This document shows positions 26,120 through 60,426 of a stretch of 64,000 bases of DNA, one piece after another; position 1 is the stretch's first letter; every line of letters starts with the position of its first letter. This stretch comes from Anaerolineae bacterium (GTDB lineage Bacteria; Chloroflexota; Anaerolineae; Anaerolineales; Anaerolineaceae), in contig JABUFD010000008.1 of NCBI GenBank assembly GCA_013314735.1, positions 1-64,000 of the forward strand, given 5' to 3'. The position numbers were made by a program, and so were the translations under genes. The notes beneath the pieces are model-generated. The model was not told the origin of the DNA, made no database searches, and was given only the letters and a program-made list of their open reading frames with translations.

Positions 26120-26146
26120 AAAGGTATCCCGTTACCCCTCTTGTAT

Positions 26147-26269: not shown

Positions 26270-29200
26270 ATGCCCTACATGGTAGATCATCGGTACCTGG
26301 TAGGTGAACAATTGGGTGTGGGAGGCATGGGCGCGGTGTACCGCGGCAAAGACACCCGCCTGCAGCGCGATGTCGCCATCAAGCGCCTGCAGATTTTTGG
26401 ATCCCAGGCGGATGTTGATCAGTTCATGAAGCGTTTCGAACGCGAAGCGATTGCCATGGCGCAGCTGCAGCATCCCAATATTGTTGGTGTCCTCGATTTT
26501 GGGCAGGATGATCAAGGCATTTTCCTCATCCTGCAATATATGCCCGGCGGATCGTTGAAGGACCGGATGACTGCCCCGTTCAATCCGCAATCAGCCGCTG
26601 CCCTGCTGGCGCCGATCGCTGACGCGCTGCATTACGTCCATGATCAGGGCATGATCCACCGCGATGTCAAACCCGGCAATATCCTGTTTGACGCGCGCGG
26701 CAACCCCATGTTGGCGGATTTCGGCATCGTCAAGCTGGTGGAGGATACTCCTGGTGCCACCCTGACCGGAACCGGTACGGCGATTGGCACACCCACCTAC
26801 ATGGCGCCTGAACTGATTGGCGGGGAATTTGACCACCGGGTGGACCAATATGCCCTGGGCATTATTTTTTATGAAATGGTCACCGGGAAGGCACCCTTCA
26901 CCGGGCGCACGCCGATGGAAGCGATGGTGGCACACAAGTATGAACCCCTGCCGGATCCGCGCCTTTTGTGCCCCGGCCTGCCGCAGGACGCCTGGGACCT
27001 GATCGTGCGCGTATTGGCGAAGGACCCTGAACAGCGTTACGAGGACAGCGGGCAATTTTCCGCCGCGCTGCGCCGGCTGGGACAGCCCCCCACCCCAACC
27101 CCGCAACCGCAGCCGAAACCCGGCGAAGAACCCACCAGCCTGGTGGAAGACGAACTGCCCTTCAACCTCCCCGCCAAAACGCCGCAACCGCCTGCGCCGG
27201 GGATGCAGGCGGTATCAGAGGAGGATGAAACCCAGGGCGTCATCACACCTGGCAAAGGTACACCCGTGCCCCCGCCGCCATTTGTTGGGAATGAAACCCC
27301 AGGAGGCGCTCCGCTTTCTGCGCCATCCCTGGTGCGTGATGAAGCCTTAAAGCCACCTGCCAAGAAGAAGCGCGCCTGGGTATGGGTTCTGGGGGGCCTG
27401 GGTGTACTTCTCTTTTTGGGTGTGGCCCTGGTGCTGTTGATCACCATGCTGACCAAAGGGATTATGGAACCTGCAGCAACCCAGGTGGCACAAACCCATC
27501 TGGAGACCAAAGTTCCGACCATTACATCCCGACCCCAGCCCACCGTTACGCCCACACTCCCCTCTCAGATCGATAACAACACAGCTTCTGCTTTGCAAGT
27601 AAAAACGAGGATCGGAAAGGGGAACGCCAATATTGCTCTCTATTCACCCGATGGCAGTCTGCTGGTGATTGGCAATTCCAGCGGGTTCTACCTGCTGGGT
27701 GCTGATACCGGCAAAGAACTGTCTTCTGTACAGGATATCTATGTAACTTCGCTGGCAATCGCCCCCAGCGGGAATGCCCTTGCGACTTTGGACCAGGATG
27801 GCTACCTGACCCTGTGGGACATTCAAAACAAATTTGCGCCCGCCATTCTGCAGCAATATCCTGCTGCTGCGCCTGGCGCTTCGTTGAGGGCAGCCACGTT
27901 TTCACCTGACGGTAACAGCCTGGCCTATGCGGATTACGATACCATTTTTTTCTATTCCTTTGAGTCAGGGACAGTTACTGGCCAGGTTGAGTGGACTGAC
28001 AGCAATATATCACAGCTACAATTCAATCCTGATGGACAGTCCATTTACGGCGCAGCAAATCAATTGGGTCTGATTGGCTTGTGGGATATGAACACTTTGA
28101 GTCTAACGACTACCTTCCCGGTAGGTTTTGTTTTCAATTTCGCACTTGCCCCCGATGGATCGCTGTTGGCAGTTTATGATAGCAATGAGGGCACCCTGAA
28201 ATTTTTCAAACCTGCCAATGCATCCCAATTTATGGAACCAATCCAAACAAATGGTTATGTCAGTGACCTTGCCTTTTCAGCTGACGGCGCCAGTTTGTAT
28301 GGAGCCATCAATGGTAACACGATCAGTCGTTGGATCTTAGTGGATGATCGCTCACAACTGACTTATCCATTAAATAATGACCAGGCTTATTTGTTTGATC
28401 TCGCGCCGGATGGCAGCAGCCTTGCCTGGACAGGATTCGGCGCTGTCGGTGTTTTTGATTTTGATACTGAACAAGCCAAATTTGATACCGATCAATTTGA
28501 TTATACCGGGGTTCTGGTGGAAGGATGGGTGAATGGAGAAGTTCTGTATGTCAACGATGATCACAACGGTTCTGTCATTCTGAGGAATACCAGCGGAATT
28601 GCGAAACAACACCTTGATTCTACCGCCATCACAACCTGGTTGGATTCCGTCACTGTCTCTTCCAATGGGCAATACCTGGCAGCCAGGTCCTATGTGAATG
28701 GCGCCATTGTTCTGCTGGTCTGGGATCTGAATACAAAACAGCTGTTAAAGCAAGTTCCGCTTGCTGATTGGGTCGGTGACTTTCGGTTTTCTGATGACAG
28801 TCAATTTTTAACAGTGGTGAATGGCATGACTGCCACTGTGTATCGAACTGATACCTGGGGAATCCATTACGGATATACTGTTACCGATGCTGCATTAACG
28901 ATCGCAAAATACTATCCCGAGTTTGATCTCCTGGTGCTTGCGGGGTATGGGCGACCGTTGTTGATCAATCCACTCAGCGGCTATACCGTTGAATTGCCAT
29001 TGAATGTCCCTGCCGAGGGTGTTTTCGATCTGGAACTATCCAGGGATGGCAGCCTGCTCTTCCTGGTCAGCGGGAAAAGCCTGTTGATCTGGAATATTCC
29101 CGACCAAACGTTTGTCCTCGAAGCCTATGACTTGCTGCCGAATAATGCGGTTGAGCTGGCGCTCAATACCAGTGAGACCCTGCTGGCGATCGGCGATAAC

Positions 29201-29359
29201 ATTGGCAATATCGTGTTTTTGGACCTGACAACCAATATAATACTGGGTGTGTTGCGGCAACATTTCGCCTCGATCCGGTGGTTGACGTTCAGTGTTGATG
29301 ACCACGAGTTGATCTCATTCGGTGATGACGGCATAACCAACATTTGGGGAATCCAATAA
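26270..29359 (+). CDS. Ser/Thr protein kinase - Pro-rich linker - TM - C-terminal beta-propeller (WD40/PQQ-like repeats)
   Basis: GVGGMGAVYRGKD, VAIKRL, HRDVKPGNILF, DFGIVKL, GTPTYMAPE. Hydrophobic helix WVWVLGGLGVLLFLGVALVLLI. Repeated ~40-aa blocks with SPDG/APDGS..L..G..DG.. motifs. GAGGAG RBS 9 nt before ATG 26270. Confidence 0.85.
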   Translation: MPYMVDHRYLVGEQLGVGGMGAVYRGKDTRLQRDVAIKRLQIFGSQADVDQFMKRFEREAIAMAQLQHPNIVGVLDFGQDDQGIFLILQYMPGGSLKDRMTAPFNPQSAAALLAPIADALHYVHDQGMIHRDVKPGNILFDARGNPMLADFGIVKLVEDTPGATLTGTGTAIGTPTYMAPELIGGEFDHRVDQYALGIIFYEMVTGKAPFTGRTPMEAMVAHKYEPLPDPRLLCPGLPQDAWDLIVRVLAKDPEQRYEDSGQFSAALRRLGQPPTPTPQPQPKPGEEPTSLVEDELPFNLPAKTPQPPAPGMQAVSEEDETQGVITPGKGTPVPPPPFVGNETPGGAPLSAPSLVRDEALKPPAKKKRAWVWVLGGLGVLLFLGVALVLLITMLTKGIMEPAATQVAQTHLETKVPTITSRPQPTVTPTLPSQIDNNTASALQVKTRIGKGNANIALYSPDGSLLVIGNSSGFYLLGADTGKELSSVQDIYVTSLAIAPSGNALATLDQDGYLTLWDIQNKFAPAILQQYPAAAPGASLRAATFSPDGNSLAYADYDTIFFYSFESGTVTGQVEWTDSNISQLQFNPDGQSIYGAANQLGLIGLWDMNTLSLTTTFPVGFVFNFALAPDGSLLAVYDSNEGTLKFFKPANASQFMEPIQTNGYVSDLAFSADGASLYGAINGNTISRWILVDDRSQLTYPLNNDQAYLFDLAPDGSSLAWTGFGAVGVFDFDTEQAKFDTDQFDYTGVLVEGWVNGEVLYVNDDHNGSVILRNTSGIAKQHLDSTAITTWLDSVTVSSNGQYLAARSYVNGAIVLLVWDLNTKQLLKQVPLADWVGDFRFSDDSQFLTVVNGMTATVYRTDTWGIHYGYTVTDAALTIAKYYPEFDLLVLAGYGRPLLINPLSGYTVELPLNVPAEGVFDLELSRDGSLLFLVSGKSLLIWNIPDQTFVLEAYDLLPNNAVELALNTSETLLAIGDNIGNIVFLDLTTNIILGVLRQHFASIRWLTFSVDDHELISFGDDGITNIWGIQ

Positions 29360-29400: not shown

Positions 29401-29466
29401 ACTCAAATTACCTGGCAATCCGTTTTCCCATACGCCACATTCTTCGGTTGCTTTCCCCTCTTGCAT

Positions 29467-29589
29467 TGTCATCTGAAAGGGTTACAATCATGGATAGTAT
29501 TCTCTGCAGCCATCGGCGATTGATCATGAATGTGATCAATTTTCCTGAACAGGCGGGGAATCATCGAAGAGGATCGAGGAGTGTACAGC
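29467..29589 (+). promoter_or_regulatory. duplicate promoter/leader (identical to 26147-26269)
   Basis: Identical 110-bp stretch including TACAATCATGGATAG and the RBS. Confidence 0.5.
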
Positions 29590-32500
29590 ATGGCCTACAT
29601 GGTGGATAATCGTTATCTGGTCGGTGAACAACTCGGCGTTGGCGGCATGGGTGCGGTCTACCGCGGCAAAGACACCCGCCTGCAGCGCGATGTCGCCATC
29701 AAGCGCCTTAACATCCTGGGGGGAAAAGCCGAAGTCGATCAGTTCATGAAACGTTTCGAACGCGAAGCGATTGCCATGGCGCAGCTGCAGCACCCCAACA
29801 TCGTGCGCGTACTCGATTTTGGGCGGGATGATGAAGGCATCTTCCTCATCCTCGAATTCATGTCCGGCAGGTCGCTGAAAGAGCGCATGACAGCCCCCTT
29901 TGATCCGCGCGCGGCAGCAATCCTGCTGGCGCCGATCGCCGATGCGCTGCATTATGTGCACGAACGGGGCATGATCCACCGTGATGTGAAACCCGGCAAC
30001 ATCCTGTTTGACGCGCGCGGCAACCCCATGCTGGCGGATTTCGGCATTGTCAAGCTGGTGGAGGAATCCCCCGGTGCCACCCTGACGGCGACGGGCATGG
30101 CGGTGGGTACGCCCACTTACATGGCGCCGGAGTTGATCGGGGGTGAATTTGACCACCGCGCCGACCAGTACGCGCTGGGGATCATCTTTTATGAAATGGT
30201 GACCGGCAAACCGCCCTTTAAGGGCCGCACGCCGATGGAAGCGATGGTGGCACACAAGTATGAACCCCTGCCGGATCCGCGCCTTTTGTGCCCCGGCCTG
30301 CCGCAGGATGCCTGGGACCTGATCGTGCGCGTATTGGCGAAGGACCCTGAACAGCGTTACGAGGACAGCGGGCAATTTTCCGCCGCGCTGCGCCGGCTGG
30401 GACAGCCCCCCACCCCAACCCCGCAACCGCAGCCGAAACCCGGCGAAGAACCCACCAGCCTGGTGGAAGACGAACTGCCCTTCAACCTCCCCGCCAAAAC
30501 GCCGCAACCGCCTGCGCCGGGGATGCAGGCGGTATCAGAGGAGGATGAAACCCAGGGCGTCCGTACCCCCGCGCGGGGGCTGCCGCTGGCACAGCCGCAA
30601 TATCACTGGGAACCGCAGCCAGCCGCGTCGGTTCAACCTGCCCCGCCCACCCCTGCGGCGGTTGCGGCGAAGAAAACAATCCCTGCCTGGGCCTGGGTGC
30701 TGGGAGGGGTTGGCCTGTTCACGATGGCAACCCTGGTGGTGGTGGCGGTGCTCCTGATCCGCAACGGGCTGTTCTCACCGGCTGCCACAGAAGAACCCTA
30801 CGCGTTCGAAGCGGCCACCGAAGCGCCAATGGCCGCGGCGGAAGAAACCGCCACGCAAGGGCCAACCGAGGCCCCCACCGCAAGCATGGTGCTTTCCGGC
30901 GGGGTGATCACCGCCGCCAACGTTGACCAGCTGCAGCCTGCATCCATCTTCGGCAAAGGCGGCGACCATCTCCCGCTCTTCACCCCCGATGGACGTTTCC
31001 TCCTGCTGGGCAACACCGACGGGCTGTATGTGTTCGATGCCGTCAGCGGGGTGGAGATCAGCCACACGCCGGGCCGCTACATCACCGCCATGGCGCTTTC
31101 GCCGGACGGCAGCGCCCTGGCCACGTTGGATTACAGCGGTTACCTCAGCCTGTGGTCGATCGGCGACGGCAGCGCGCCTTACCTGTTCCAGGCCTACCAG
31201 TACCAAGGCGGCAACAACTGGGACCTGCGCGCGCTGGCCTGGTCGCCCGACGGCAGTGTGATCGCCTTCAGTGACGCCTACACGATCTACTATTATTCCG
31301 TTGAAAAAAATGATGTTTTCAACACGGCTTATTGGGAAAACAGCCTGATCCGCGACCTGGCGTTCAGCCCGGACGGCAACCTTGTGTATGCCGCCGCCAA
31401 CAACCTCGCCTTGGTGGGGGTGTGGATCGCTGAAACTTCCACCCTGTACACCACCATTCCGGTCAATTACCCCTACTATATCGACCTATCGCCGGATGGA
31501 ACGCGCCTGGCGGTGTTTGACGCCGAGGAATACAGCCTGAAGCTGTTCAGCCTCTCCTCCTACCTCCTGGAACGCGCCTACAGTGTTGACGGGTACATGA
31601 ATGAAATGCGCTTTTCCCCTGATGGCACCGCCCTGTATGCCGTCCTCAGCAACGGCCAGGTCAACCGCTGGGAGGTGGGCGGCAGTGACCAGCCCCTCAC
31701 GCGCCAGCTGCCGGAAGGCTATGGCACACGCTTCTCGCTGTCGCCCGGCGGCTGCCTGGCGGCCTGGAGCAACTGGCTCCGGGTTGGAACCTACGACCTG
31801 TGTCAGGGTACCCCGGGTTTCTCCCTGGATGCTTTCACCACCCGCGGTAACCCGGTGAGGGGCTGGGTGAACGATGAATTGCTGTTCTCCGATACAGAGA
31901 GCCAACCGGGGCGGGTGCTCATCCGCGATATCTTCGGCGATGTGCGCCATGGGCTGGACATCTCATCCTACAACACCTGGATGTACCCGGTCAGCATTTC
32001 CCCCGACGGCACCACCCTGGTTGGCGGGGTGTATTACCAGAACACCTACAATATCCTGCTGTTCGACCTGGCTTCGGAATCGCTGCTGGGGATGTTCGCG
32101 GTGGATGAATATCCAATCGACCTGCGCTTTGCGCCAGACAGCCAGTCTTTTGTCTACTGCGGCAGCAGCCTCACCCGCATTTACAATATTCACAACTGGT
32201 GGGAGGGACCGTTCTACAGCCTGGATGGGTTGGAATACATGCAGGTGGGCAAGTATTTCCCGGCCTATGACCTGCTTGTGCTGGGCCAGTTCGCGAAAGT
32301 GCAGCTGGTATCACCGGCCAGCGGGGAAAGGTTCGAGCTGCCTGTGCCGGGGGGATATGTGGAAGGGATCGCGCTTTCCGCTGACGGCAGCCGGGTATAC
32401 GTGGCCAGCGGCCGTTCCCTGTACGTGTACGACCGCCGGACGGGTGCCTTTGTGGCGCAAGCCCCGGACAGCCTCCCGACAGAAGGATATGCGCTTGCCC

Positions 32501-32697
32501 TGAATGGGTCGGAAACCCTGCTGGCAGTCGGCGATACGCAGGGCGCGATTCACCTGTTCGACGCGCAAAACCTGGGCTGGGTGCGCACCCTCTACCGCCA
32601 CACCTACGGCATGGCAGACCTGCAGTTTGCGCCCGATGACCGGGCATTAACCTCCACCGGTTGGGATGCCCTGAGCGTGGTGTGGGCCGTGCCGTAA
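29590..32697 (+). CDS. Ser/Thr protein kinase - linker - TM - beta-propeller, paralog of 26270-29359
   Basis: Kinase domain ~90% identical at protein level to the upstream paralog; the identical PTPTPQPQPKPGEEPTSLVEDELPFNLPAKTPQPPAPGMQAVSEEDETQGV linker is retained. The C-terminal repeat domain has diverged. Confidence 0.85.
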   Translation: MAYMVDNRYLVGEQLGVGGMGAVYRGKDTRLQRDVAIKRLNILGGKAEVDQFMKRFEREAIAMAQLQHPNIVRVLDFGRDDEGIFLILEFMSGRSLKERMTAPFDPRAAAILLAPIADALHYVHERGMIHRDVKPGNILFDARGNPMLADFGIVKLVEESPGATLTATGMAVGTPTYMAPELIGGEFDHRADQYALGIIFYEMVTGKPPFKGRTPMEAMVAHKYEPLPDPRLLCPGLPQDAWDLIVRVLAKDPEQRYEDSGQFSAALRRLGQPPTPTPQPQPKPGEEPTSLVEDELPFNLPAKTPQPPAPGMQAVSEEDETQGVRTPARGLPLAQPQYHWEPQPAASVQPAPPTPAAVAAKKTIPAWAWVLGGVGLFTMATLVVVAVLLIRNGLFSPAATEEPYAFEAATEAPMAAAEETATQGPTEAPTASMVLSGGVITAANVDQLQPASIFGKGGDHLPLFTPDGRFLLLGNTDGLYVFDAVSGVEISHTPGRYITAMALSPDGSALATLDYSGYLSLWSIGDGSAPYLFQAYQYQGGNNWDLRALAWSPDGSVIAFSDAYTIYYYSVEKNDVFNTAYWENSLIRDLAFSPDGNLVYAAANNLALVGVWIAETSTLYTTIPVNYPYYIDLSPDGTRLAVFDAEEYSLKLFSLSSYLLERAYSVDGYMNEMRFSPDGTALYAVLSNGQVNRWEVGGSDQPLTRQLPEGYGTRFSLSPGGCLAAWSNWLRVGTYDLCQGTPGFSLDAFTTRGNPVRGWVNDELLFSDTESQPGRVLIRDIFGDVRHGLDISSYNTWMYPVSISPDGTTLVGGVYYQNTYNILLFDLASESLLGMFAVDEYPIDLRFAPDSQSFVYCGSSLTRIYNIHNWWEGPFYSLDGLEYMQVGKYFPAYDLLVLGQFAKVQLVSPASGERFELPVPGGYVEGIALSADGSRVYVASGRSLYVYDRRTGAFVAQAPDSLPTEGYALALNGSETLLAVGDTQGAIHLFDAQNLGWVRTLYRHTYGMADLQFAPDDRALTSTGWDALSVVWAVP

Positions 32698-34714: not shown

Positions 34715-35075
34715 CTTCGGCAGGCTCAGTGTGAAGCTCAGTGCAGGAGCTCAGGGAGCGTATTATTTCAACGGTCGCCGAGCGGGTTCCTGAGCCTGTC
34801 GAAGGATCGAGGCGACATTCTGCGGGTAACTTACGTTCTCCCCTCGACACACTTCGACAGGCTCAGTGCAGGAGCTCGGGGAGCGTGTTAATGGGGTGCG
34901 TGTTAACGCAACGGTCGCCGAGCGGGTTCCTGAGCCTGTCGAAGGATCGAAGCGACATCCTCCGTCCAAGGCGACATTCTGCGGGTAACTTACGTTCTCC
35001 CCTCGACACACTTCGACAGGCTCAGTGCAGGAGCTCGGGGAGCGTTTTTAAAGGGTGCGTGTTAATGGGCCGGGT
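34715..35075. repeat. left flanking copy (2+ tandem units) of a hairpin repeat (T family: cctgagcctgtcgaagg ... cttcgacaggctcag)
   Basis: Units at 34771-34918 and 34911-35075 share acggtcgccgagcgggttcctgagcctgtcgaagg..gcgacattctgcgggtaacttacgttctcccctcgacacacttcgacaggctcagtgcaggagctcggggagcgtgttaatgg. Same family and orientation at 44170-44400. Confidence 0.75.
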
Positions 35076-44169: not shown

Positions 44170-44400
44170 CTCACCAACCATCGAAGGGACATTCTGCGGG
44201 TAACTTGCGTTCTCCCCTCGACAGGCTCGGGGAGCGTATTATTTCAACGGTCGCCGAGCCTGTCGAGGCGACATCCTCCGTCCGAGGCGACATCTTAGTC
44301 CGAAGCGACGTCCCCCACCCGAAGCGACAATGTGCGGGTAACTTGCGTTCTCCCCTCGACAGGCTCGGGGAGCGTGTTAATGGGGTGCGTTAATCAGCCT
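44170..44400. repeat. right flanking copy of the T-family hairpin repeat (direct orientation relative to 34715-35075)
   Basis: gacattctgcgggtaacttgcgttctcccctcgacaggctcggggagcgt[a/g]tta repeated twice; contains internal 13-nt tandem cgaggcgacatc-like repeats. Confidence 0.75.
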
Positions 44401-49794: not shown

Positions 49795-49860
49795 AGGATC
49801 AACCGCGGATTGACACGGATTTTTTTCTTCCTGATCCGCGAAAATCTGTGAGATCAGTGG
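49795..49860. repeat. second copy of the Crp-upstream element (aaccgcggatt..cacggatttttttcttcctgatccgcg..aaaatctgtga..ccgattc)
   Basis: Compare with 796-960 (ccacggatttttttcctctttatccgcg .. aaaatctgtgccgattc .. TACAAT). Sits next to a ~400-bp low-GC stretch at 49400-49800. Confidence 0.5.
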
Positions 49861-49934
49861 TTATTCCGATTCACTGCACCGATTTTTCCCCTTGCGTCAG
49901 GCTACAATCACGAGGAGTGAACAGCAACGGATGG

Positions 49935-51117: not shown

Positions 51118-51939
51118 TCAGGCGGATTCCGGGGATGTGGATTGCGCTTCCTGCTGGATCAGGTAGAGGTGCCTGCCGCCGGCGTGGTTGCTGTAGGCCC
51201 GTTCCATCCCCCGCGCTTCCGCCAGGTGGCTTTCATAAAGAAACTGGTTCCCCTCGGTGATGTATTGCTGTTCCAGGGTGGGAAGCACCGCCAGCCGGCG
51301 GCGCACATGCGCCAGCACTTCGGCGTTCAATTCCCGGCTCTGCCAGCGCAGGCCCAATTCGTCCAGCAGCAAACCCAGCGGGTTGTACTGCGGCAAATTG
51401 GCACGCCGATCATAGCTTTGCAGGTCGTCATGCGGCATGGCGCTGCAGTCATAGATCACCGCCAGGGTACCGCCGGGCTTCAGCAAGGCCAGGAGACCGG
51501 TGAGGGTGCTGCGCAGGTCTGTAAAATACAGGGTATCGATCGAGACGATGACATCAAAACTGGCAGGCGGGAACGTAAGGCTGCCCATATCCATCACCGC
51601 GAAGTCAAGCCGCCCGTGCCCGGCGCGGGTGCGGGACAAAGCCCGTTCGATGGCACAGGGAATGTTGTCAATGCCGGTGACATGCGCGCCGGTGGTATCG
51701 CTGAAATATTCCGCGATCATGCCGTTGCCACACCCCAGGTCGAGCACCTGTGTGGCAGGGGACATCCCCGTCCGCAGGATGATCTCATCCAGGTGCGCCA
51801 TATCGGCAAAGCCGTGCTGGCACAGGTTCCTGCCGTAGACGGCCTCGCAAAAAGCGGCATTGGCGCTGCTGGTTTCCACTGCCTGGTAAAAGCGCGTATA
51901 AAATTCATCCATCGATCCGCTCCTTTGACTCGCTCGCAA
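51118..51939 (-). CDS. class I SAM-dependent methyltransferase
   Basis: Motif I VLDLGCGNG; post-I acidic residue; motif II-like region. Confidence 0.8.
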   Translation of the reverse strand: MRASQRSGSMDEFYTRFYQAVETSSANAAFCEAVYGRNLCQHGFADMAHLDEIILRTGMSPATQVLDLGCGNGMIAEYFSDTTGAHVTGIDNIPCAIERALSRTRAGHGRLDFAVMDMGSLTFPPASFDVIVSIDTLYFTDLRSTLTGLLALLKPGGTLAVIYDCSAMPHDDLQSYDRRANLPQYNPLGLLLDELGLRWQSRELNAEVLAHVRRRLAVLPTLEQQYITEGNQFLYESHLAEARGMERAYSNHAGGRHLYLIQQEAQSTSPESA

Positions 51940-51961: not shown

Positions 51962-52880
51962 TGAACCTCCCTCCGGGATGGGATGGCGAAGGTAAGTTGT
52001 CAATGAAGCGCTCGGAACGTCAAAGCCACGCCACGGTGGTGAAGGTTGGCTATAGTTATCGTTACAAACCCGAACCTCCATCCCGGAGGGAGGGACTTGC
52101 GCCGCTTGCGTTCGTGACCTGACTGCCTCCCTCCGGGATGGGATGGCGGAGGCAAGTTGGAAGTGATTGGCCGGAACGTCAAAGCCACGCCACGGTGGTG
52201 AAGGTTGGGCATGGCAAAAGTTGCACTTCTGAACCTCCATCCCGAAGGGAGGTCTCCATCCCGGAGGGAGGGACTGACGCCGCTTGCGTTCGTAACCTGA
52301 CTGCCTCCCTCCGGGATGGGATGGCGGAGGTAAGTTGGAAATGAATGCCCGGAACGCCAAAGCCACGCCGCGGTGGTGAAGGTTGGGCATGGCAAAAGTT
52401 GCACGCCTGAGCCTCCCTCCGGGATGGAGGGACTTGCACCGCTGGTATTCGTAACCTGACTGCCTCCCTCCGGGATGGGATGGCGAAGGTAAGTTGTCAA
52501 TGAAGCGCTCGGAACGTCAAAGCCACGCCGCGGTGGTGAAGGTTGGCTATAGTTATCGTTACAAACCCGAACCTCCATCCCGAAGGGAGGTCTCCATCCC
52601 GGAGGGAGGGACTGACGCCGCTGGTATTCGTAACCTGACTACCTCCCTCCGGGATGGGATGGCGGAAGCAGGTTTGGAATGAATGCCCGGAACACAAAAG
52701 TCATGCCGCGGTGATGAACGTTGGCTATAGTTATCGTTACAAACCCGAACCTCCATCCCGGAGGGAGGGACTGACGCCACTTGCGTTCGTGACCTGACTG
52801 CCTCCCTCCGGGATGGGATGGCGGAGGCAAGTTGGAAGTGATTGGCCGGAACGTCAAAGCCATGCCACGGTGGTGAACGT
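51962..52880. repeat. tandem array A of the composite H-family hairpin repeat (~5.5 units of 160-180 bp)
   Basis: Units start at 52072, 52231, 52411, 52571 and 52747. Each has inverted arms cctccatcccggagggagggac ... gcctccctccgggatgggatggcg separated by a ~45-nt loop, then a conserved ~95-nt tail (ggccggaacgtcaaagccacgccgcggtggtgaaggttgg..). Confidence 0.85.
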
Positions 52881-52968
52881 ATGTGTGATGTGGCATCAAA
52901 AATTGGCTATAATGGTAACAGGACGCAGCTTCCACACCCGTTCCAACATTCACAGGCAAGAGGGTTTT

Positions 52969-53574
52969 ATGAGTATGGGTACAAACATGGGTACGATCAT
53001 CGGCACAATCATCATCATCAACGGCACCAGTTCTTCCGGCAAAACGTCAATTGTCAAGGCACTGCAGCAGCAATCGGCGGTACCGTATATCGATGCCGGG
53101 CTGGACCGCTTCCTGTGGATGCTCCCCTCCCGCTACCTCGACCGCCCGTTGTGGGATGACGTACTCGGCCTGGCAACCGAAGCCGGGCAAACCGGGCATA
53201 CCCTGGCGCGCGGCATGCACCGCGCCATCGCGGCCCTGGCCCACAGCGGGAACTACGTGGTGGCCGACCATGTACTGGTGGAACCCGGCTGGGTAACGGA
53301 TTGCGCCGAATTATTCTGGCAGCTGCCGGCGTACCTGGTGGGGGTGCGCTGCCCGTTGGCAGTGCTGGAGGAGCGCGAGCGCGCCCGCCGCGACCGCACC
53401 CTGGGGCAGGCAAAGGCGCAGTACCCGCTGGTACACGCCCACGATATTTACGACCTCGAAGTGGACACCTCGGTGCTGTCCCCGCAGGAATGTGCCACGG
53501 CCATCCTCGAACGCGTCAGCAGCGGCGGGCCGCCCACGGCGTTTCATCAACTGAAGCACGGCGGCCTGTTTTGA
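52969..53574 (+). CDS. chloramphenicol phosphotransferase-like (CPT family) P-loop kinase
   Basis: P-loop IIINGTSSSGKTSIVKAL at the N-terminus, typical of CPT-like proteins. TATAAT at 52908-52913; GAGG RBS before ATG 52969. The track ORF N-terminal extension runs into the repeat array. Confidence 0.65.
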   Translation: MSMGTNMGTIIGTIIIINGTSSSGKTSIVKALQQQSAVPYIDAGLDRFLWMLPSRYLDRPLWDDVLGLATEAGQTGHTLARGMHRAIAALAHSGNYVVADHVLVEPGWVTDCAELFWQLPAYLVGVRCPLAVLEERERARRDRTLGQAKAQYPLVHAHDIYDLEVDTSVLSPQECATAILERVSSGGPPTAFHQLKHGGLF

Positions 53575-55952: not shown

Positions 55953-56120
55953 ATGGCAACCAAAGTAAAAGGCAAAATCAGCAAAACCAGCAAAACCAAT
56001 GCCGCTGCGCAGAACAAGAAAACCGCCGCCGACCACAAGCGGCGCAGCACGCAGATCATCTTTTTGGCGGTATCGGTCGTCATCATCCTGGCGATGGTGC
56101 TGTCGATGATCTCGTTCTAA
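55953..56120 (+). CDS. small (55-aa) basic single-TM protein
   Basis: MATKVKGKISKTSKTNAAAQNKKTAADHKRRSTQIIFLAVSVVIILAMVLSMISF; ends exactly where repeat array B begins. Below the ORF-track size cutoff. Confidence 0.4.
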   Translation: MATKVKGKISKTSKTNAAAQNKKTAADHKRRSTQIIFLAVSVVIILAMVLSMISF

Positions 56121-56880
56121 CCGGACCCGCTTCCCTCCCGCCGGGATGGTGAACGTTGGCAATCGTTGACGTTACACGCCTGAACCTCCATCCCGAAGGG
56201 AGGTCTCCATCCCGGAGGGAGGGACTTGCGCCGCTTGTGTTCGTAACCTCACCACCTCCCTCCGGGAGGGGATGGCGGGGGTATGTGGAAAAGGATGGTT
56301 CGGAACGTCAAAGGCACGCCGCGATGATGAACGTTGGGAATGGTGCATGGTACATTCCCGAACCTCCATCCCGGAGGGAGGGACTTGCGCCGCTTGTGTT
56401 CGTGACCTGACTGCCTCCCTCCGGGATGGGATGGCGGAAGTGAGTTTGATACGATTGGCCGGAACGTCAAAGGCACGTTTCGGTGGTGAACGTTAATCAT
56501 TGCCAAAGTTAACTACCCGAACCTCCATCCCGGAGGGAGGGACTTGCGCCACTTGTGTTCGTAACCTCACCACCTCCCTCCGGGATGGGATGGCGAAAGT
56601 ATGTTTTGAAATGCTTGGCCGGAACGTCAAAGATACGTTTCGGTAATGAACGTTAATCATTGCCAAAGTTAACTACCCGAACCTCCATCCCGGAGGGAGG
56701 TCTCCATCCCGGAGGGAGGGACTTGCGCCGCTTGTGTTCGTGACCTCACCACCTCCCTCCGGGATGGGATGGCGGAAGTGAGTTTGACACGGTTGGCCGG
56801 AACGCCAAAGGCACGCCGCGGTGGTTAACGGTGGCAATAGTTCATGTTACACTTCTGAACTTATGTCCAGCCGGAACGTC
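56121..56880. repeat. tandem array B of the H-family composite hairpin repeat (~4.5 units)
   Basis: Units start at 56183, 56360, 56519 and 56679. Arm variant ..gtaacctcaccacctccctccgggatgggatggcg; tail variant ggccggaacgtcaaaggcacg..gtgaacgttaatcattgccaaagttaactacccgaa. Confidence 0.85.
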
Positions 56881-56899
56881 AAAGGCGGCGGAACCGTCC

Positions 56900-57244
56900 T
56901 TACTCCGCCGAGAGGTGCACATCCGGTTCCCAGCGGAAGCGCGCCAGGTCGATCCGGCCGAAGGCATCAAATTCAACCCCTTCCGCCTCCAGCAGTTCAC
57001 GCTGGATGAACGAACCTTCCCCCCCGCCGTGCAGGCTGATCTCACCGCGCGCGTTGACCACGCGCTGCCACGGCACCGGCGCGGTATGCGGTTCACTGCG
57101 CAGGTGGTTGAGGGCATAGCCCACCTGGCGCGCGCCGCAGCCGCCGTGCATCTCGGCAATCTGCCCGTAATTGGCCACCTTCCCCGGCGGGATCAGGCGT
57201 ACCAGTTCATAAATTTCCTCGTACAACCCGGTTGCTTTTGCCAT
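56900..57244 (-). CDS. alkyltransferase-like (ATL) protein: MGMT-family DNA-binding domain lacking the active-site cysteine
   Basis: VYELVRLIPPGKVANYGQIA..GYAL.. HTH and PWQRVV in place of the PCHRV active site. Start overlaps the stop of the upstream nucleotidase gene. Confidence 0.7.
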   Translation of the reverse strand: MAKATGLYEEIYELVRLIPPGKVANYGQIAEMHGGCGARQVGYALNHLRSEPHTAPVPWQRVVNARGEISLHGGGEGSFIQRELLEAEGVEFDAFGRIDLARFRWEPDVHLSAE

Positions 57245-57789
57245 CAGGCACCTCCCAGCAGCACGTCCTCCCAGTTGGCCCACGTCAGGCGCCGCCATTG
57301 GCGCGCCTCGCGGTTGTAGGGCTGGTCATACAAAATATACTCCCAGGTGGGGGTGAATTTTCCCTTCAGTTCCGGGCGGTCATCCACCAGGAAATCGCCC
57401 CGCACCACGGTCTTGTCGGCGGTGATGATCACACGCCGCTGCCAGCCCTGCCCCAGGTGCTCGTGCACCCAGCGGTATTTGCAGCTGACGCACTGCGGGT
57501 AATTAAAGTAAGAGGAGGTGCACAGGAACACATCATGCCCCAACTCCACCATGCGGTGCAGCGCATCCACCGCGCCCGCGATCGGCGGCAACTGGCAGAA
57601 GAAATCGGGGTGGGCGATGACGGAGGTCACCTTTTTGGCATGCTCGGGGGGATAGTCACGCGTCTGGTAAAAATGGCGGCGCGCTTCACGCGGCACCGCC
57701 GGAATGTGCGGGTAACGTTCCTGCCAGATCTCGAGGAATCGCCCCTCGAAATCGGCAATGGTATTGTCCATGTCGACCAGAATAATCAT
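57244..57789 (-). CDS. HAD-superfamily 5'(3')-deoxyribonucleotidase
   Basis: MIILVDMDNTIADFEGRFLEIWQERYP with DxDxT motif I at the N-terminus; 181 aa. Confidence 0.7.
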   Translation of the reverse strand: MIILVDMDNTIADFEGRFLEIWQERYPHIPAVPREARRHFYQTRDYPPEHAKKVTSVIAHPDFFCQLPPIAGAVDALHRMVELGHDVFLCTSSYFNYPQCVSCKYRWVHEHLGQGWQRRVIITADKTVVRGDFLVDDRPELKGKFTPTWEYILYDQPYNREARQWRRLTWANWEDVLLGGA

Positions 57790-57923
57790 CGCTGCCGGAT
57801 GCCTCCACTTCGATTGCTTGATGAAATGGATTATACCGCATGAAACCGCCCCGGTGCTGCCAGGCGGCCGGGGCGGTATGTTTTGTGTCGAATGAAACGA
57901 TCTTGCCGGGTGACAGTTCGACC

Positions 57924-58026
57924 GTAATCGAAATTACAGCCAGTCTGTAATCGAAATTGCGGCTAGTCTGTAATCGAAATTGCGGCTAGTCCGCAATCGA
58001 AATTACAGCTAGTCTGTAATCGTGAT
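57924..58026. repeat. 4.5 tandem degenerate copies of the 23-bp 3' end (including stop codon) of the downstream lipoprotein gene
   Basis: gtaatcgaaattacagccagtct / gtaatcgaaattgcggctagtct / ..ctagtcc / gcaatcgaaattacagctagtct / gtaatcgtgat(gene end). Confidence 0.7.
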
Positions 58027-58929
58027 AACCGCCGAGGTTTTGCTGACCCCATCCGCCAGGTCGGTGGTCATCACCTTCACCACCCATTTCTGGCCCTTGA
58101 CGGCGCTGGCAGGGATCGTCATCGTCACCGAGGCAGCGCCGTTGCTGTCGGTAAGGCCATCGGCGGCCACACTGTAGGCTTTGCCCTCTTCACCCAGCAG
58201 GAAATCGATGTTGACGTTCTTGGGGAAGCCGGTAACGGTTACGATGAAGCTGTCGCCGGGCTTGAGGCTGGTGGAAGACAGGAGCACATTCACACCGGTG
58301 GGGGTGCTGGTGGCGGTGCGCACCACGATCGTGATCGCGGCGGATCGGGCGCTGACGTTGGGTGACAATTCCGTGGTGGTCACTTCCACTTCCCAGGTTT
58401 CATCCTTCACCGCCCCGGCCGGCATGACCAGCGAGGTGGAATAGGCGCCGTTGCTGTCGGTCTTGCCGTCCTTCACCACACTGGGCGAAGCACCGCTCTT
58501 GCGCAGGTAGACATCAATATCGGCGCTGGCCGGGAAGCCGGCAACCGTCACCGTGAAGCTCTCGCCGGCGGCCAGGCTGGTGGAAGATACACTCACGCCC
58601 ACAGTGGGGGTGGCGGTATAGTACACCAGGATCTGCTGGGTGGCGGTGGCAGTGGGGGTTTTGGTCGGCCCCTCGGTGGGGGTGACCGTCGGCTGGGTGG
58701 TGGCGGTGGGTTCAGGGGTTTCCGTGGCGGTAGGCTCCAGGGTGGCGGTGGGCTGTGCCAGCGCGGTGCTGGTCAGGGCCGCCACCACGGTCTGCGCGGC
58801 GGAAGTGGCAATCTGGTTGGCGTCCAGGGTGGGCACGGCATCGGCTGCCGGGCCGCAGCTGCTGATCAGCAGCGCAAGCAGCGTTACCATGGCAAATACA
58901 CGGAACGCGGTTGAGGGAGTGGTTTTCAT
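58009..58929 (-). CDS. secreted lipoprotein with T/P-rich linker and two ~100-aa repeated beta-domains (..VTVTGFP.NV.ID..LG.EGKAYSV..DG.TDSNG.AS.TM.IPASAVKG.KWVVKV.T.. )
   Basis: Signal peptide with lipobox LLISSCG; TATEPTATETPEPTATTQPTVTPTEGPTKTPT linker; internal duplication; C-terminal VITITD. Confidence 0.65.
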   Translation of the reverse strand: MKTTPSTAFRVFAMVTLLALLISSCGPAADAVPTLDANQIATSAAQTVVAALTSTALAQPTATLEPTATETPEPTATTQPTVTPTEGPTKTPTATATQQILVYYTATPTVGVSVSSTSLAAGESFTVTVAGFPASADIDVYLRKSGASPSVVKDGKTDSNGAYSTSLVMPAGAVKDETWEVEVTTTELSPNVSARSAAITIVVRTATSTPTGVNVLLSSTSLKPGDSFIVTVTGFPKNVNIDFLLGEEGKAYSVAADGLTDSNGAASVTMTIPASAVKGQKWVVKVMTTDLADGVSKTSAVITITD

Positions 58930-59089
58930 GTGCATACAATACCTTCTTTTCGGTTTCAAGATCATATCAGCCAACATAGGATGATACACCCATTTGGCAT
59001 CCTGTGCGAGACTGGCTGGAGAATTGTACCCCGGGTGTAGGCCGCGCGCAGCCGTTGCGGTGCAGGCTGCGCGCGGTTTTCATGCTGGT

Positions 59090-59185
59090 GTGACGATGTT
59101 CGTTCTTCAGTCGCCAATCATCGTCATCAGTCGATGATCGGCATCGTTACTCGATGATCGTCATCAGTCAATGATCGTGATCAAG
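59090..59185. repeat. degenerate tandem copies of the 3' terminal ~20 bp of the adjacent paralog gene
   Basis: tcagtcgccaatcatcg / tcatcagtcgatgatcg / ttactcgatgatcg / tcatcagtcaatgatcgtgatcaa (gene end LITIID*). Confidence 0.6.
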
Positions 59186-60426
59186 GGAGAGGTTTTGACA
59201 ACCCCGCTGATCAACTCCGTGGTGCGCACGGTAACGAGCCATTTCTCGCCTTTCACCGCGCTGACCGGGATCGTCATCGTGATCGCTGCCGCGCCGGTGC
59301 TGTCGGTCTTGCCGTCCATCACCACGCTGTAGGCCTGGCCCTGCTTGCCCAGTTCAAAATCGATCTCGGCATTGGCCGGGAAGCCGCTCACCATCACGGT
59401 GAAGGTCGCACCCGCCCGCAGGCTGGTACCGGAAACCGTCACCAACCCGCCCGAGGCGCTCCCGCTCTCGGTGATCGTGATCACCGGCGAGGTCTTGCTG
59501 ACCTGCTCCACCAGGTCCTGGGTGAGGACCTTGACCACCCATTTTTCACCCTTGACGGCACTGGCGGGAATCACCATGGTGGCGGTGGCAATCCCGTTCT
59601 TGTCGGTCTTGCCGTCCAGCACCACGCTGTAGGCCTGGCCTTCCTTGCCCAGCTGGAAGTCAATTTCCGCTTCCTTCGGGTAACCGGTCACGGTGACGGT
59701 GAAGCTGTCGCCGGCCTTGAGGCTGGTGGAAGATACCACCACTTTCGCGCTGGCGCCGGGGTCCTTGATCGTGATCACGGTTGATACAGCGGAAACTTTG
59801 CTGGAGAGGTTGGTGGTATAGACTTCCACCACCCATTTCTCGCCCTTGGCGGCATTGGCGGGAATCACCAGCGCGGCGGAGGCTTTCCCCTGGCTGTCGG
59901 TTTTGCCGTCGAGGATCACGCTGGCGGAGGCGCCCTGTTTTTTCAGCACGATGTCAATCTCGGCATTGGCCGGGAAGCCGTAGGCAGAGGCGGTGAAGCC
60001 GTCACCGATCCCCAGGCTGGTACCGGACAACAGCACACCGATGGTGGGGGTGGCGGTGGGCAGCGGGGTATTGGTGGCGCTGGGGGTGAAGGTCAGCGTG
60101 GGGGTAAAGGTCAGGGTCGCGGTGGCAGTCGCGGTGGGCAGCAGGGTGGCCGTCGGCAGTTCGGTGGCGGTGGCGGTGGGCGCCAGGGTGGCCGTATCCT
60201 CCGCCGCGGGTGCCTGCGTACCGGTCGGCAGGATCACCACCGGCTGATCGGTCTGCGCCAGGATCGCTTCAATCGTCTGCGCCGCTGCCGTGGCAATCTG
60301 GTTGGGGTCCAGCGTGGCCTGCGCGGTTTCCTGCGGCTGACCGCAGCCGGCGAGCAGGAATACCGCCAGCACCAGCAGGATCAGCCCGGTGAGAATCGTT
60401 TTGCGTTTGAAATTCCTTGGTTCCAT
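59164..60426 (-). CDS. paralogous secreted lipoprotein with four copies of the same ~100-aa repeated domain
   Basis: Lipobox LLAGCG; T/P/A-rich linker; four repeats of ..TV.GFPANAEID..LGK.GQAYSVV.DGKTD..G.A..TM.IP.SAVKGEKW.V.V.T.. Confidence 0.65.
   Translation of the reverse strand: MEPRNFKRKTILTGLILLVLAVFLLAGCGQPQETAQATLDPNQIATAAAQTIEAILAQTDQPVVILPTGTQAPAAEDTATLAPTATATELPTATLLPTATATATLTFTPTLTFTPSATNTPLPTATPTIGVLLSGTSLGIGDGFTASAYGFPANAEIDIVLKKQGASASVILDGKTDSQGKASAALVIPANAAKGEKWVVEVYTTNLSSKVSAVSTVITIKDPGASAKVVVSSTSLKAGDSFTVTVTGYPKEAEIDFQLGKEGQAYSVVLDGKTDKNGIATATMVIPASAVKGEKWVVKVLTQDLVEQVSKTSPVITITESGSASGGLVTVSGTSLRAGATFTVMVSGFPANAEIDFELGKQGQAYSVVMDGKTDSTGAAAITMTIPVSAVKGEKWLVTVRTTELISGVVKTSPLITIID

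What the first reader, a model, noticed from the sequence alone, without database searches (positions are those of the whole stretch)
51962..52880. Tandem arrays of a composite REPIN-like hairpin element (H family): ~175-bp units, 5.5 copies here, 4.5 at 56.12 kb, solo at 15.8 kb
Each unit carries two ~20-bp GC-rich inverted arms (cctccatcccggagggagggac / gcctccctccgggatgggatggcg) around a conserved ~45-nt loop, plus a conserved ~95-nt tail.

The whole unit, not just the hairpin, is serially amplified. This is unlike CRISPR, where spacers are unique. It is also unlike ordinary REP/BIME clusters, because the linker is itself conserved in two sub-variants.

The arms resemble REP doublets (REPINs) mobilised by RAYT transposases, yet no RAYT or IS200/IS605 gene lies within 64 kb.

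If transcribed, each unit would form a very stable ~20-bp stem-loop, so the arrays could be structured ncRNA arrays, protein-binding scaffolds or recombination hot spots.

The three loci sit next to small or defence-like genes: AAC(3), a CPT-like kinase and a 55-aa membrane protein.
Basis: seen in the sequence. Interest (0 to 1): 0.8.

Follow-up and report, generated by a model that had tools for sequence, protein, structure and literature searches.

The report
REPIN-like tandem repeat clusters, Anaerolineae
These are real non-coding intergenic arrays of a hairpin-forming repeat in an uncultured Anaerolineae bacterium, and they look like a new family of an already known kind of selfish bacterial repeat (REP/REPIN/BIME-type clusters), not a new type of system.

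Summary
There are two tandem arrays (51962-52880 and about 56137-56891) and one solo copy (15779-16028). Each unit has a 17-bp GC-rich inverted repeat around a 32-nt spacer, a conserved tail and a semi-variable 38-nt linker. Some units carry 1-4 extra copies of a 19-nt arm repeat. A fourth, inverted copy lies about 1.5 kb beyond the window.

Short-read contigs from the same metagenome (deep Siberian aquifer, Anaerolineae MAG) match the window exactly and break at every array edge. The units cannot be coding, match no Rfam family, and carry no predicted promoter or terminator.

Variants are shuffled among units. One arm is flipped in place and one hairpin is reduced to a single arm. These are signs of slippage, unequal crossover and gene conversion.

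Its claim that whole-unit amplification with conserved linkers is unlike REP/BIME clusters is wrong: tandem REPIN clusters that include flanking sequence are described in Pseudomonas fluorescens SBW25 and other genomes.

Membership in the REP family proper is not shown. There is no GTAG or CGTC tag, the single arms fold weakly, and no RAYT transposase could be searched for outside the window. The exact arms are absent from 185,579 reference genomes.

Verdict: a new member of a known kind, of low to moderate interest.

The parts
51962..52880 (+). Array A: a lone arm (51966-51986) followed by 5 hairpin units. It lies between two divergent genes, the methyltransferase (51118-51912, -) and the CPT-like kinase (52969-53574, +).
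   Evidence: edges confirmed by Logan contigs L038 and L037
52076..52146 (+). Typical long hairpin (unit A1): left arm 52076-52096, 32-nt spacer, right arm 52126-52146. The other hairpins are at 52254-52324, 52592-52662, 52751-52821, 56205-56275, 56364-56434, 56523-56593, 56702-56772 and 15907-15977.
   Evidence: 17-bp helix with 96.6% of cells paired; DNA fold z = -4.2 on + and -3.6 on -; RNA fold
52413..52433 (+). Left arm of unit A3, inverted in place (CTCCCTCCGGGATGGAGGGAC). It is now a direct repeat of its own right arm (52463-52483), so no long hairpin can form.
52235..52253 (+). Extra 19-nt copy of the arm (CTCCATCCCGAAGGGAGGT) that makes a unit 178/179 bp instead of 159/160. Others are at 52573-52591, 56186-56204 and 56683-56701, with four at 15831-15906.
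52171..52203 (+). Tail core T (CCGGAACGTCAAAGSCACGCCRCGGTGGTGAAS), which contains a small CAC.../...GTG stem. Others are at 52012, 52349, 52509, 52688, 52846, 56300, 56459, 56619, 56797 and 16002, with partial copies at 15779-15800 and 56871-56891.
   Evidence: 92.7% of cells paired but covariation not significant
52204..52234 (+). The variable part of the 38-nt linker that joins T to the next left arm (full linker, including the end of T: GGTGAAsGTTGG..AT.......GTTAC....C.GAAC). At least 6 sequence variants are shared in mosaic fashion among the units.
56137..56891 (+). Array B: degenerate T plus linker, 4 hairpin units, a terminal T-linker, then 10 unrelated nt and a partial T. It lies between two convergent genes, the 55-aa ORF (55955-56120, +) and the MGMT-like gene (56900-57298, -).
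   Evidence: edges confirmed by L037 and L050
15779..16028 (+). Solo copy: shortened T, linker, 4 extra 19-mers, hairpin, post-arm segment, T. It lies between two divergent genes, AAC(3) (14881-15723, -) and a beta-lactamase-family gene (16106-18022, +).
   Evidence: left edge confirmed by L039
8147..8315 (+). Sister family F2 with the same layout (CCGCGGTGAAGG..., arm CCCCATCCCGGAGGTGGG, spacer, arm CCCACCTCCGGGATGG, ...GGAACGCCACGCG). A second full copy lies at 11460-11628 (96% identical). Partial copies lie at 10630-10686 and 13271-13327.
   Evidence: weak HMM hits E about 4e-4; two compensatory pairs relative to H

Best explanation
This is a lineage-specific family of non-coding intergenic mosaic repeats of the REP/REPIN/BIME kind, found in an uncultured Anaerolineae bacterium.

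**Anatomy.** The core is a doublet of inverted 17-21-nt arms that can extrude as a 17-bp hairpin in single-stranded DNA or RNA. The core sits in a conserved frame: a tail core T on each side, a 38-nt linker and a post-arm segment.

**How it spreads (inferred).** Copies reach new intergenic sites as non-autonomous DNA, most plausibly through a hairpin-recognising single-strand (HUH/Y1, RAYT-like) transposase encoded elsewhere in the genome.

**How the arrays form (read from the sequence).** Once a copy is in place, the whole unit including its flanks multiplies locally by replication slippage and unequal crossover. Gene conversion then shuffles variants among units. The same processes multiply the 19-nt arm, flip an arm, and delete between arms.

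**Effect on the host (inferred).** Any effect is probably incidental. The hairpins could act as barriers at the 3' end of the CPT operon in array B. The arrays could also be recombination or insertion hot spots at breaks in gene order.
For: **Shown**
- The repeats are highly non-random, and their edges are confirmed independently.
- The arms form a 17-bp helix. Its stability is well beyond shuffled controls.
- Two adjacent base pairs change on both sides between family H and sister family F2 (G-C to U-A and A-U to G-C), so arm complementarity is maintained.
- All copies are intergenic.
- The units are non-coding. Periods of 159/160/178/179 break the reading frame, and the longest ORF across the array has no homologue among 5.8 billion proteins.
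- There is no Rfam family, promoter or terminator.
- Variants form a mosaic. Identical post-arm segments recur at A0 and A3, and at A1 and A5. All four combinations of two loop polymorphisms occur. TRF also finds a 338-bp higher-order period.
- There is an in-place arm inversion at 52413, and a single-arm remnant at the left end of array A.
- Copies occur in both orientations. A fourth copy on the minus strand lies about 1.5 kb past the window.
- Four loci within about 50 kb, together with short-read contigs breaking at each one, suggest many copies per genome.
- Relatives whose CPT gene is 87% and 83% identical lack the array and have a different upstream neighbour.
- The exact arm is not multicopy in any of 185,579 species-representative genomes. 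No H-family copy turned up in JGI metagenomes, IMG/VR or plasmids.

**From the literature**
- Tandem REPIN clusters that include flanking sequence are a described arrangement, as are REP dimers reiterated with flanking DNA (PMC3116915; PMC3733652).
Against: - No transposase of any kind lies in the window. The rest of the genome could not be searched, so mobilisation by a RAYT is inference only.
- The arms lack the GTAG or CGTC tag that marks most catalogued REPs (sequence inspection; criteria from PMC3733652).
- A single arm folds only weakly as DNA (-3 to -4 kcal/mol, z = -0.6 to -1.25), so 'two inverted REP hairpins' may be better described as one long inverted repeat.
- The genome-wide copy number is unknown.
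- No empty site was recovered, so the exact ends and any target duplication are undefined. The T-like sequence at both ends of the solo copy is unexplained.
Confidence: 0.6

Rival explanations
1. It is a classical MITE, a deletion derivative of a DDE-type insertion sequence moved by cut-and-paste. The T-like sequences at both ends would be terminal or target repeats.
For: - The solo copy carries T-like sequence at both ends: GGAACGCC-TCGGTGGTGAAG on the left and GGAACGTCAAAGTCACGCCGCGGTG on the right.
- F2 has short imperfect inverted ends, CCGCGGTG...CACGCGG.
- The copies are intergenic and lineage-specific.
Against: - The strong inverted repeat is internal, not terminal.
- No clean terminal inverted repeats or short fixed target duplication can be seen at any of the array or solo edges.
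- No matching IS or transposase is in the window or in plasmids.
- Head-to-tail arrays of 5-6 units are not typical of MITEs.
Confidence: 0.12
2. It is an array of structured non-coding RNA genes, or a cis-acting RNA element. Each unit would be transcribed and fold into a functional RNA.
For: - The hairpin is very stable as RNA; a whole unit folds at -75 kcal/mol.
- A U.G pair closes the helix in all 10 H units on the + strand and would be an A.C mismatch on the other strand.
- The T stem shows two compensatory changes.
- Array B could be co-transcribed with the CPT operon, because no terminator is predicted between them.
Against: - There is no Rfam match. The best hit has E = 0.19 and scores well below the gathering threshold.
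- No promoter-like site is predicted inside the arrays.
- Whole-unit fold z-scores are only -2.1 on both strands.
- Covariation in T is not significant; 91 of 500 shuffles reach it.
- The long helix is invariant within H.
- One unit has lost the hairpin through arm inversion.
- A copy also exists in the opposite orientation.
- The family is absent from relatives.
Confidence: 0.07
3. The arrays are recombination modules that bracket accessory-gene cassettes. The repeat blocks would act as attachment or crossover sites for moving or swapping the genes between them.
For: Three different repeat families each bracket a block of accessory genes in direct orientation.
- H arrays A and B flank CPT, GNAT, Zn-ribbon, GNAT and the 55-aa ORF (3.2 kb).
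- F2 copies flank a methylase-restriction fusion, an HTH gene and YefM/YoeB.
- F3 copies flank type I R-M, GmrSD and HEPN genes in a low-GC block.
- Relatives have a different gene upstream of CPT exactly where array A sits.
Against: - No integrase or recombinase is in the window.
- The hairpin lacks the attC core sites (RYYYAAC / GTTRRRY), and the flanks of the arms are asymmetric (sequence inspection).
- The solo copy and the fourth copy bracket nothing.
- Bracketing is expected by chance when abundant repeats spread locally, or when islands insert into existing repeat clusters.
- The H-bracketed block has normal GC content.
Confidence: 0.08
4. The arrays are reiterated protein-binding sites. 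The T core or the arms would be operators or nucleoid-protein sites that regulate or insulate the adjacent promoters.
For: - In three of four loci the T end lies about 28-30 nt upstream of a -10-like hexamer of a gene in the same orientation: TATAAT before CPT, TATCAT before the beta-lactamase-family gene, and TATACT before the TPP riboswitch/TPK operon. These hexamers were chosen after the fact.
- T contains a near-palindrome, CCAC-N6-GTGG.
- Arrays A and S sit between divergent genes.
Against: - Array B lies between convergent 3' ends, where no promoter is expected.
- Half-sites that change together (CAC/GTG to TAC/GTA) fit base pairing better than protein recognition.
- No regulator gene is linked.
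- The spacing coincidence rests on three hand-picked hexamers.
Confidence: 0.08
5. The tandem arrays are an artefact of assembly.
For: - The window comes from a MAG of a metagenome whose MAGs were improved with Nanopore reads (PMC7509429).
- Short-read contigs do not span the arrays.
Against: - All eight array or solo edges covered by short-read contigs match with 0 mismatches.
- The units differ from one another in a structured mosaic way, which polishing errors or collapsed repeats would not produce.
Confidence: 0.03

Closest known systems
Tandem REPIN clusters of Pseudomonas fluorescens SBW25 (Bertels and Rainey 2011, PMC3116915)
   Same: - Two inverted short repeats separated by a spacer form a hairpin.
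[quoted passage not shown] The largest has 4 REPINs plus one extra REP and exceeds 700 bp; here there are 5 hairpins plus one extra arm in 919 bp.
- SBW25 also has arrays with a 184-bp period.
- The elements are intergenic and specific to a lineage.
   Different: - There is no GTAG tag here.
- The arms are shorter and are only weak palindromes on their own.
- No linked RAYT has been found.
- The host phylum is different (Chloroflexota, class Anaerolineae).
- A 19-nt arm repeat is multiplied head to tail, directly abutting.
E. coli BIMEs (REP/PU clusters with defined linker motifs; PMC3333891, PMC2817692)
   Same: - Repeats alternate in orientation and are regularly spaced (PMC2817692 abstract).
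- From my own knowledge, not checked here: the linker motifs are conserved and BIME-2 arrays are reiterated many times.
   Different: - The unit is about twice as long.
- There is no sequence similarity.
- None of the proteins reported to bind BIMEs in E. coli (IHF per PMC3479197 abstract; gyrase and Pol I from my own knowledge) could be tested.
GTAG/CGTC-tagged REP superfamilies and their clusters (Di Nocera et al. 2013, PMC3733652)
   Same: - Head-to-head dimers have conserved 20-100-bp spacers.
- Large clusters are dimers reiterated in tandem together with flanking DNA.
- REP dimers can be nested inside other repeated palindromes.
- REPs do occur in Chloroflexi (Thermomicrobium roseum).
   Different: - Neither tag lies next to the arms.
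- The only CGTC is inside T, 4 nt from a 5-6-bp bulged stem that does not fit the 8-9-bp CGTC stems beginning with A-T pairs.
Neisserial intergenic mosaic elements (dRS3/NIME arrays) and pneumococcal BOX elements (comparison from my own knowledge, apart from the dRS3 = CGTC-1 equivalence stated in PMC3733652)
   Same: - They are modular intergenic mosaics.
- They contain short inverted repeats plus longer conserved modules.
- An internal module varies in tandem copy number, like boxB.
- They are often found next to variable accessory genes.
   Different: - There is no sequence relationship.
- The module order and sizes differ.
- The phage-integrase targeting known for dRS3 was not seen here.

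Membership tests
REPIN (REP doublet forming a hairpin) | [quoted passage not shown] | tested here: met
   The helix is 17 bp, the spacer 32 nt, and 96.6% of cells are paired. DNA fold z = -4.2.
REPIN (REP doublet forming a hairpin) | A cognate single-copy RAYT (Y1/HUH transposase) in the same genome, typically flanked by the same REPs | not testable with these tools
   None is present among about 50 window ORFs. The rest of the 131-kb contig and of the MAG could not be retrieved.
REPIN (REP doublet forming a hairpin) | High copy number dispersed through extragenic space | tested here: inconclusive
   There are four loci and about 13 units in about 65 kb, all intergenic, in both orientations, and short-read contigs break at each. 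No genome-wide count is available.
REP proper (GTAG superfamily) | Each unit is an imperfect palindrome with an unpaired GTAG tag at one end | tested here: not met
   No GTAG/CTAC lies next to the arms. CTAC appears only in the B2/B3 linker variant. Single arms fold at -3 to -4 kcal/mol, no better than shuffles.
REP proper (CGTC superfamily) | A CGTC tag next to an 8-9-bp stem that begins with A-T pairs, with a 4-5-nt loop | tested here: not met
   CGTC occurs only within T (GGAACGTCAAAG), 4 nt from a 5-6-bp bulged stem of G-C pairs. The criteria are from PMC3733652.
BIME / ordered REPIN cluster | Regularly spaced repeats in alternating orientation with recurring linker motifs, reiterated in tandem | tested here: met
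   Spacings are 159/160/178/179 bp. The linkers and post-arm segments recur.
MITE (DDE-type) | Terminal inverted repeats and a fixed short target-site duplication | tested here: inconclusive
   Neither is visible at the solo or array ends, where long T-like direct repeats are seen instead. No empty site was recovered to fix the exact ends.
CRISPR array | Short identical direct repeats separated by unique spacers, usually with cas genes | tested here: not met
   The sequence between the arms is itself repeated. The arms alternate in orientation. No cas domain was found in any scanned ORF.
Integron attC / cassette array | R''-L''...L'-R' sites with RYYYAAC / GTTRRRY cores, ORF-bearing cassettes, and a nearby intI | tested here: not met
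   The flanks of the arms (CCCGAAC... / ...GTTGGAA) do not fit the cores and are asymmetric. The units carry no ORF. No integrase is in the window.
Known structured RNA family (Rfam 15) | A match at or above a family's gathering score | tested here: not met
   At gathering threshold only tRNA-Phe is found in the window. The best hit in the array is DUF1874 RNA, 21.6 bits against a threshold of 42, E = 0.19.

The most novel reading that the evidence does not exclude
The repeat families in this genome (H, F2, F3) may not be merely selfish. They could act as family-specific recombination modules that bracket defence and resistance gene cassettes and mediate their gain, loss or exchange. That would be an integron-like or 'minimal mobile element'-like cassette system that uses long structured repeats, with a recombinase encoded elsewhere.
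Probability: 0.07. Interest if true: 0.65.

Novelty: new member of a known kind. Interest (0 to 1): 0.27.

Why it matters
**Value if confirmed.** This would document a REPIN/BIME-type repeat family, with ordered tandem clusters, in Anaerolineae. Such elements are little described in that class. It would also supply a sister-family pair (H and F2) whose arms changed on both sides of the helix, which is useful for studying how these repeats evolve and what recognises them.

**Practical point.** These repeats are what fragment short-read assemblies of this organism. They also mark breaks in gene order next to resistance-like and defence genes.

**Limits.** The finding does not open a new class of system. 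Its wider interest would rise only if the mobilising enzyme proved unusual, or if the bracketing of cassettes proved functional.

Tried and rejected
1. **Reference genomes.** A scan of 185,579 species-representative genomes with the 18-mer arm gave only 36 scattered single hits in unrelated taxa, which are chance matches.
2. **JGI metagenomes.** The 21-mer right arm gave 0 hits. The core hairpin pattern shared by H and F2 gave 7 loci, none of family H. Four of them (L040, L042, L043, L044) share a different nested-palindrome element that happens to contain the CCATCCCGGAGGGA core.
3. **IMG/VR and PLSDB.** Nothing relevant was found.
4. **Translated repeat.** The 192-aa ORF across array A was used to fish for spuriously called ORFs in other genomes. 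It gave no hits.
5. **Rfam.** Nothing was found at gathering threshold or at E-value up to 1.
6. **Promoter and terminator scan.** No site lies inside the arrays.
7. **Linker as a copy of the CPT promoter.** Linker variant 1 resembles GCTATAATGGAATTGTTACAATTTCCGAAC upstream of CPT in a relative, but 26 of 300 shuffles score as well. The idea was dropped.
8. **Covariation in the tail.** The T stem and a TGGCG/CGTCA stem are 92.7% paired, but their covariation is not above the shuffle control. They are treated as suggestive only.
9. **Each arm as a REP hairpin.** The fold energies are no better than shuffles.
10. **attC, CRISPR and coding readings.** All were rejected on anatomy.
11. **Walking beyond the window.** Two look-ups failed because my start codons differed from the called genes. 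The NCBI copy of the AAC(3) protein could not be located. One look-up succeeded and revealed the fourth locus.
12. **Empty site for the solo copy.** The nearest AAC(3) homologues outside this MAG are 70% identical or less, too distant to be useful, so this was not pursued.
Full report
**1. Is it there?**

Yes. TRF reports periods of 159, 178/179 and 338 at both arrays, and a 19-nt period at 15831-15924.

The arm 18-mer CTCCATCCCGRAGGGAGG (up to 2 mismatches) occurs 29 times, against 0.01 expected from shuffles. The tail core occurs 8 times, against 0 expected. An HMM built from eight units recovers 12 full or partial copies, all on the + strand and only at the three loci.

Array A has five hairpins plus a lone arm. 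Array B has four hairpins with partial tail/linker pieces at both ends. The third locus is one solo copy.

**2. Anatomy**

Each unit reads, in order:
- Tail core T: CCGGAACGTCAAAGsCACGCCrCGGTGGTGAAs.
- A 38-nt linker, conserved at its ends and variable in the middle.
- Zero to four extra 19-nt copies of the arm (CTCCATCCCGAAGGGAGGT).
- Left arm: CTCCATCCCGGAGGGAGGGAC.
- A 32-nt spacer.
- Right arm: CCTCCCTCCGGGATGGGATGG.
- A post-arm segment of about 25 nt, then the next T.

Units measure 159/160 bp, or 178/179 bp when an extra 19-mer is present.

The arms form a 17-bp helix with 96.6% of cells paired. As single-stranded DNA it folds at -23.2 kcal/mol on the + strand (z = -4.2) and -21.9 on the - strand (z = -3.6). 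A single arm folds only weakly, at -3 to -4 kcal/mol, no better than shuffles.

The unit at 52413 has its left arm exactly inverted, so its two arms are direct repeats. The left end of array A is a single arm in that same flipped orientation, joined directly to the post-arm segment. This is what a deletion between two direct arms would leave.

**3. What it is not**

- **Not coding.** The unit periods break any reading frame, and the 192-aa ORF that crosses array A has no homologue in 5.8 billion proteins.
- **Not a known RNA.** At gathering threshold only tRNA-Phe is found in the window, and the best array hit has E = 0.19.
- **No promoter-like or terminator-like site** inside the arrays.
- **Not CRISPR.** The sequence between the arms is itself repeated and the arms alternate in orientation.
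- **Not attC.** The core sites, ORF cassettes and integrase are all missing.
- **No mobile-element enzyme.** About 50 window ORFs scanned against Pfam show no transposase, integrase or Y1/HUH domain.

**4. Source and independent support**

The flanking proteins occur, as exact sequences, only in Logan contigs of SRR6186653. That run is the metagenome of a 2.8-km-deep aquifer in Western Siberia (PMC5701477 and PMC7509429).

These short-read contigs match the window with no mismatch and stop inside the repeats at every array edge. The AAC(3) protein is 100% identical to one from 'MAG: Anaerolineae bacterium' on a 131-kb NCBI contig. The CPT homologues are named Anaerolineaceae, Anaerolineales or Chloroflexota.

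The boundaries are therefore solid. The copy number inside the arrays depends on the long-read or hybrid assembly.

**5. Distribution**

Contig L050 runs 1.5 kb past the window. It ends in the reverse complement of GGAACGCCAAAGGCACGCCGCGGTGGTGAAGG. This is a fourth copy, on the minus strand, just upstream of the promoter of a TPP-riboswitch/thiamine pyrophosphokinase operon. The family therefore occurs in both orientations, at four intergenic sites in about 50 kb.

The exact arm is not multicopy in any of 185,579 species-representative genomes. No H-family copy turned up in JGI metagenomes, IMG/VR or plasmids.

Relatives whose CPT gene is 87% and 83% identical have no such repeat upstream, and a different neighbouring gene. 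The family is young and restricted to this lineage.

**6. A sister family**

Copies at 8147-8315 and 11460-11628 (96% identical), and partial copies at 10630 and 13271, share the layout of H. They open with CCGCGGTGAAGG, then have arms CCCCATCCCGGAGGTGGG and CCCACCTCCGGGATGG around a spacer of about 31 nt, and close with GGAACGCCACGCG.

Compared with H, two adjacent helix pairs have changed on both sides: G-C to U-A and A-U to G-C. Arm complementarity is therefore maintained across families. This fits selection for a hairpin, or replication of the doublet as one unit. It does not say whether the hairpin forms in DNA or in RNA.

**7. Dynamics**

- Identical post-arm segments recur at A0 and A3, and at A1 and A5.
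- Linker types recur in a different order from the post-arm types.
- Two loop polymorphisms occur in all four combinations.
- TRF sees a 338-bp higher-order period.

Together with the multiplied 19-mer, the flipped arm and the single-arm remnant, this is the signature of slippage, unequal crossover and gene conversion within and between arrays.

**8. Weak leads**

- **Tail stems.** A small stem in T (CAC.../...GTG) and a TGGCG/CGTCA stem are 92.7% paired and show two compensatory changes. Shuffled controls reach this often (91 of 500), so it is suggestive only.
- **Strand preference.** A U.G pair closes the long helix on the + strand in all H units. That slightly favours the + strand, but a minus-strand copy also exists.
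- **Promoter spacing.** In three of four loci the T end lies about 28-30 nt upstream of a -10-like hexamer of a co-oriented gene. I chose those hexamers by eye, so this is a lead and not a result.
- **Linker origin.** The resemblance of linker variant 1 to the CPT promoter of a relative is not significant.

**9. Comparison with what is known**

The architecture is that of a REPIN: two inverted short repeats with a spacer, forming a hairpin (PMC3337134 abstract).

[quoted passage not shown] The largest has four REPINs plus an extra REP and exceeds 700 bp. REP arrays with a 184-bp period and up to 12 REPs also occur there (PMC3116915).

[quoted passage not shown] They also describe dimers with conserved spacers, dimers nested in other palindromes, and REPs in Chloroflexi (PMC3733652).

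Membership in REP proper is not established. There is no GTAG or CGTC tag next to the arms, the single arms are weak palindromes, and the RAYT and the genome-wide copy number could not be tested.

**10. Mechanism I commit to**

A non-autonomous hairpin element spreads in trans, most plausibly through a single-strand HUH/Y1-type transposase encoded elsewhere. This step is inferred. Whole units are then amplified and reshuffled locally by slippage, unequal crossover and gene conversion. This step is read from the sequence. Any effect on the host is incidental.

Overall confidence is 0.6. It is higher for the classification as a REPIN/BIME-like cluster and lower for the enzyme.

The rivals are a DDE-type MITE, an ncRNA array, recombination modules that bracket cassettes, reiterated protein-binding sites, and an assembly artefact. 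Each is given with its test in the Rival explanations section.

**11. Verdict**

This is a new family of a known kind of repeat in a little-studied lineage, of low to moderate interest.

Noticed in passing
window 8147-8315, 11460-11628 (full); 10630-10686, 13271-13327 (partial): Sister repeat family F2 has the same layout as H but different arms. The two full copies are 96% identical. They bracket a 3.1-kb block holding a DNA methylase-restriction endonuclease fusion, an HTH gene and a YefM/YoeB toxin-antitoxin pair. One partial copy lies just upstream of tRNA-Phe.
   Followed up: partly
window 34808-35065 and 44182-44397: A third repeat family (two copies on each side, containing ...GACATTCTGCGGGTAACTTRCGTTCTCCCCTCGACA...) brackets a low-GC block. 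The block holds type I R-M genes (hsdM, hsdS, hsdR), a GmrSD-like gene and a HEPN gene, and sits between metG and a NUDIX gene. A short-read contig also breaks here.
   Followed up: partly
L050 8692-8730 (equivalent to about 65449-65487, just outside the window): A fourth H-family copy lies in the opposite orientation. Its T end is about 30 nt upstream of a TTGCAA-17-TATACT promoter-like site, which is followed by a TPP riboswitch (L050 8514-8646, Rfam 59.5 bits) and a thiamine pyrophosphokinase/ABC transporter operon.
   Followed up: yes
window 52413-52433 and 51962-51986: One arm is inverted exactly in place, and at the array edge a single flipped arm is joined directly to the post-arm segment. 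Together they look like two steps of one pathway: flip, then deletion between the resulting direct repeats.
   Followed up: partly
window 52880-52915, 16028-16071; L050 8655-8691: In three of four loci the element's T end sits about 28-30 nt upstream of a -10-like hexamer of a co-oriented gene. I picked the hexamers by eye, so this may be coincidence.
   Followed up: no
window 803-851, 903-951, 49814-49862: Another short intergenic repeat (CACGGATTTTTTTCYTC..ATCCGCG..GATCYGTGTAATCCGTGGTT) occurs in three copies.
   Followed up: no
window 57901-58038: A 23-nt tandem repeat (GTAATCGAAATTACAGCTAGTCT, about 4-5 copies) lies at the 3' side of two genes (58009-58989 and 59164-60426) that share internally repeated 300-bp segments and have no or only weak Pfam hits.
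   Followed up: no
window 26132-29359 and 29452-32697: Two adjacent paralogous Ser/Thr kinase-WD40 genes of about 1030 aa lie in tandem. Their upstream regions are 87% identical, and the first gene has much lower GC at third codon positions (0.58 against 0.77).
   Followed up: no
L042 471-528, L043 10986-11269, L040 1964-2017, L044 1572-1648: Unrelated metagenome contigs carry a large nested-palindrome element. Its innermost hairpin (CCCCATCCCGGAGGGATGACAGC / GCTGTCATCCCTCCGGGATGGGG) shares the CCATCCCGGAGGGA core with the H arms, and it has outer AGCCGGTGGT / ACCACCGGCT arms. Whether this reflects common ancestry or only the search pattern I used is unknown.
   Followed up: partly
L048 735-760 and L049 790-890: In relatives that lack the array, the divergent region between CPT and an RHH_8 gene contains short CCATCC...GGATGG palindromes. 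They may be operators for the ribbon-helix-helix protein, and they faintly resemble the arm core.
   Followed up: no
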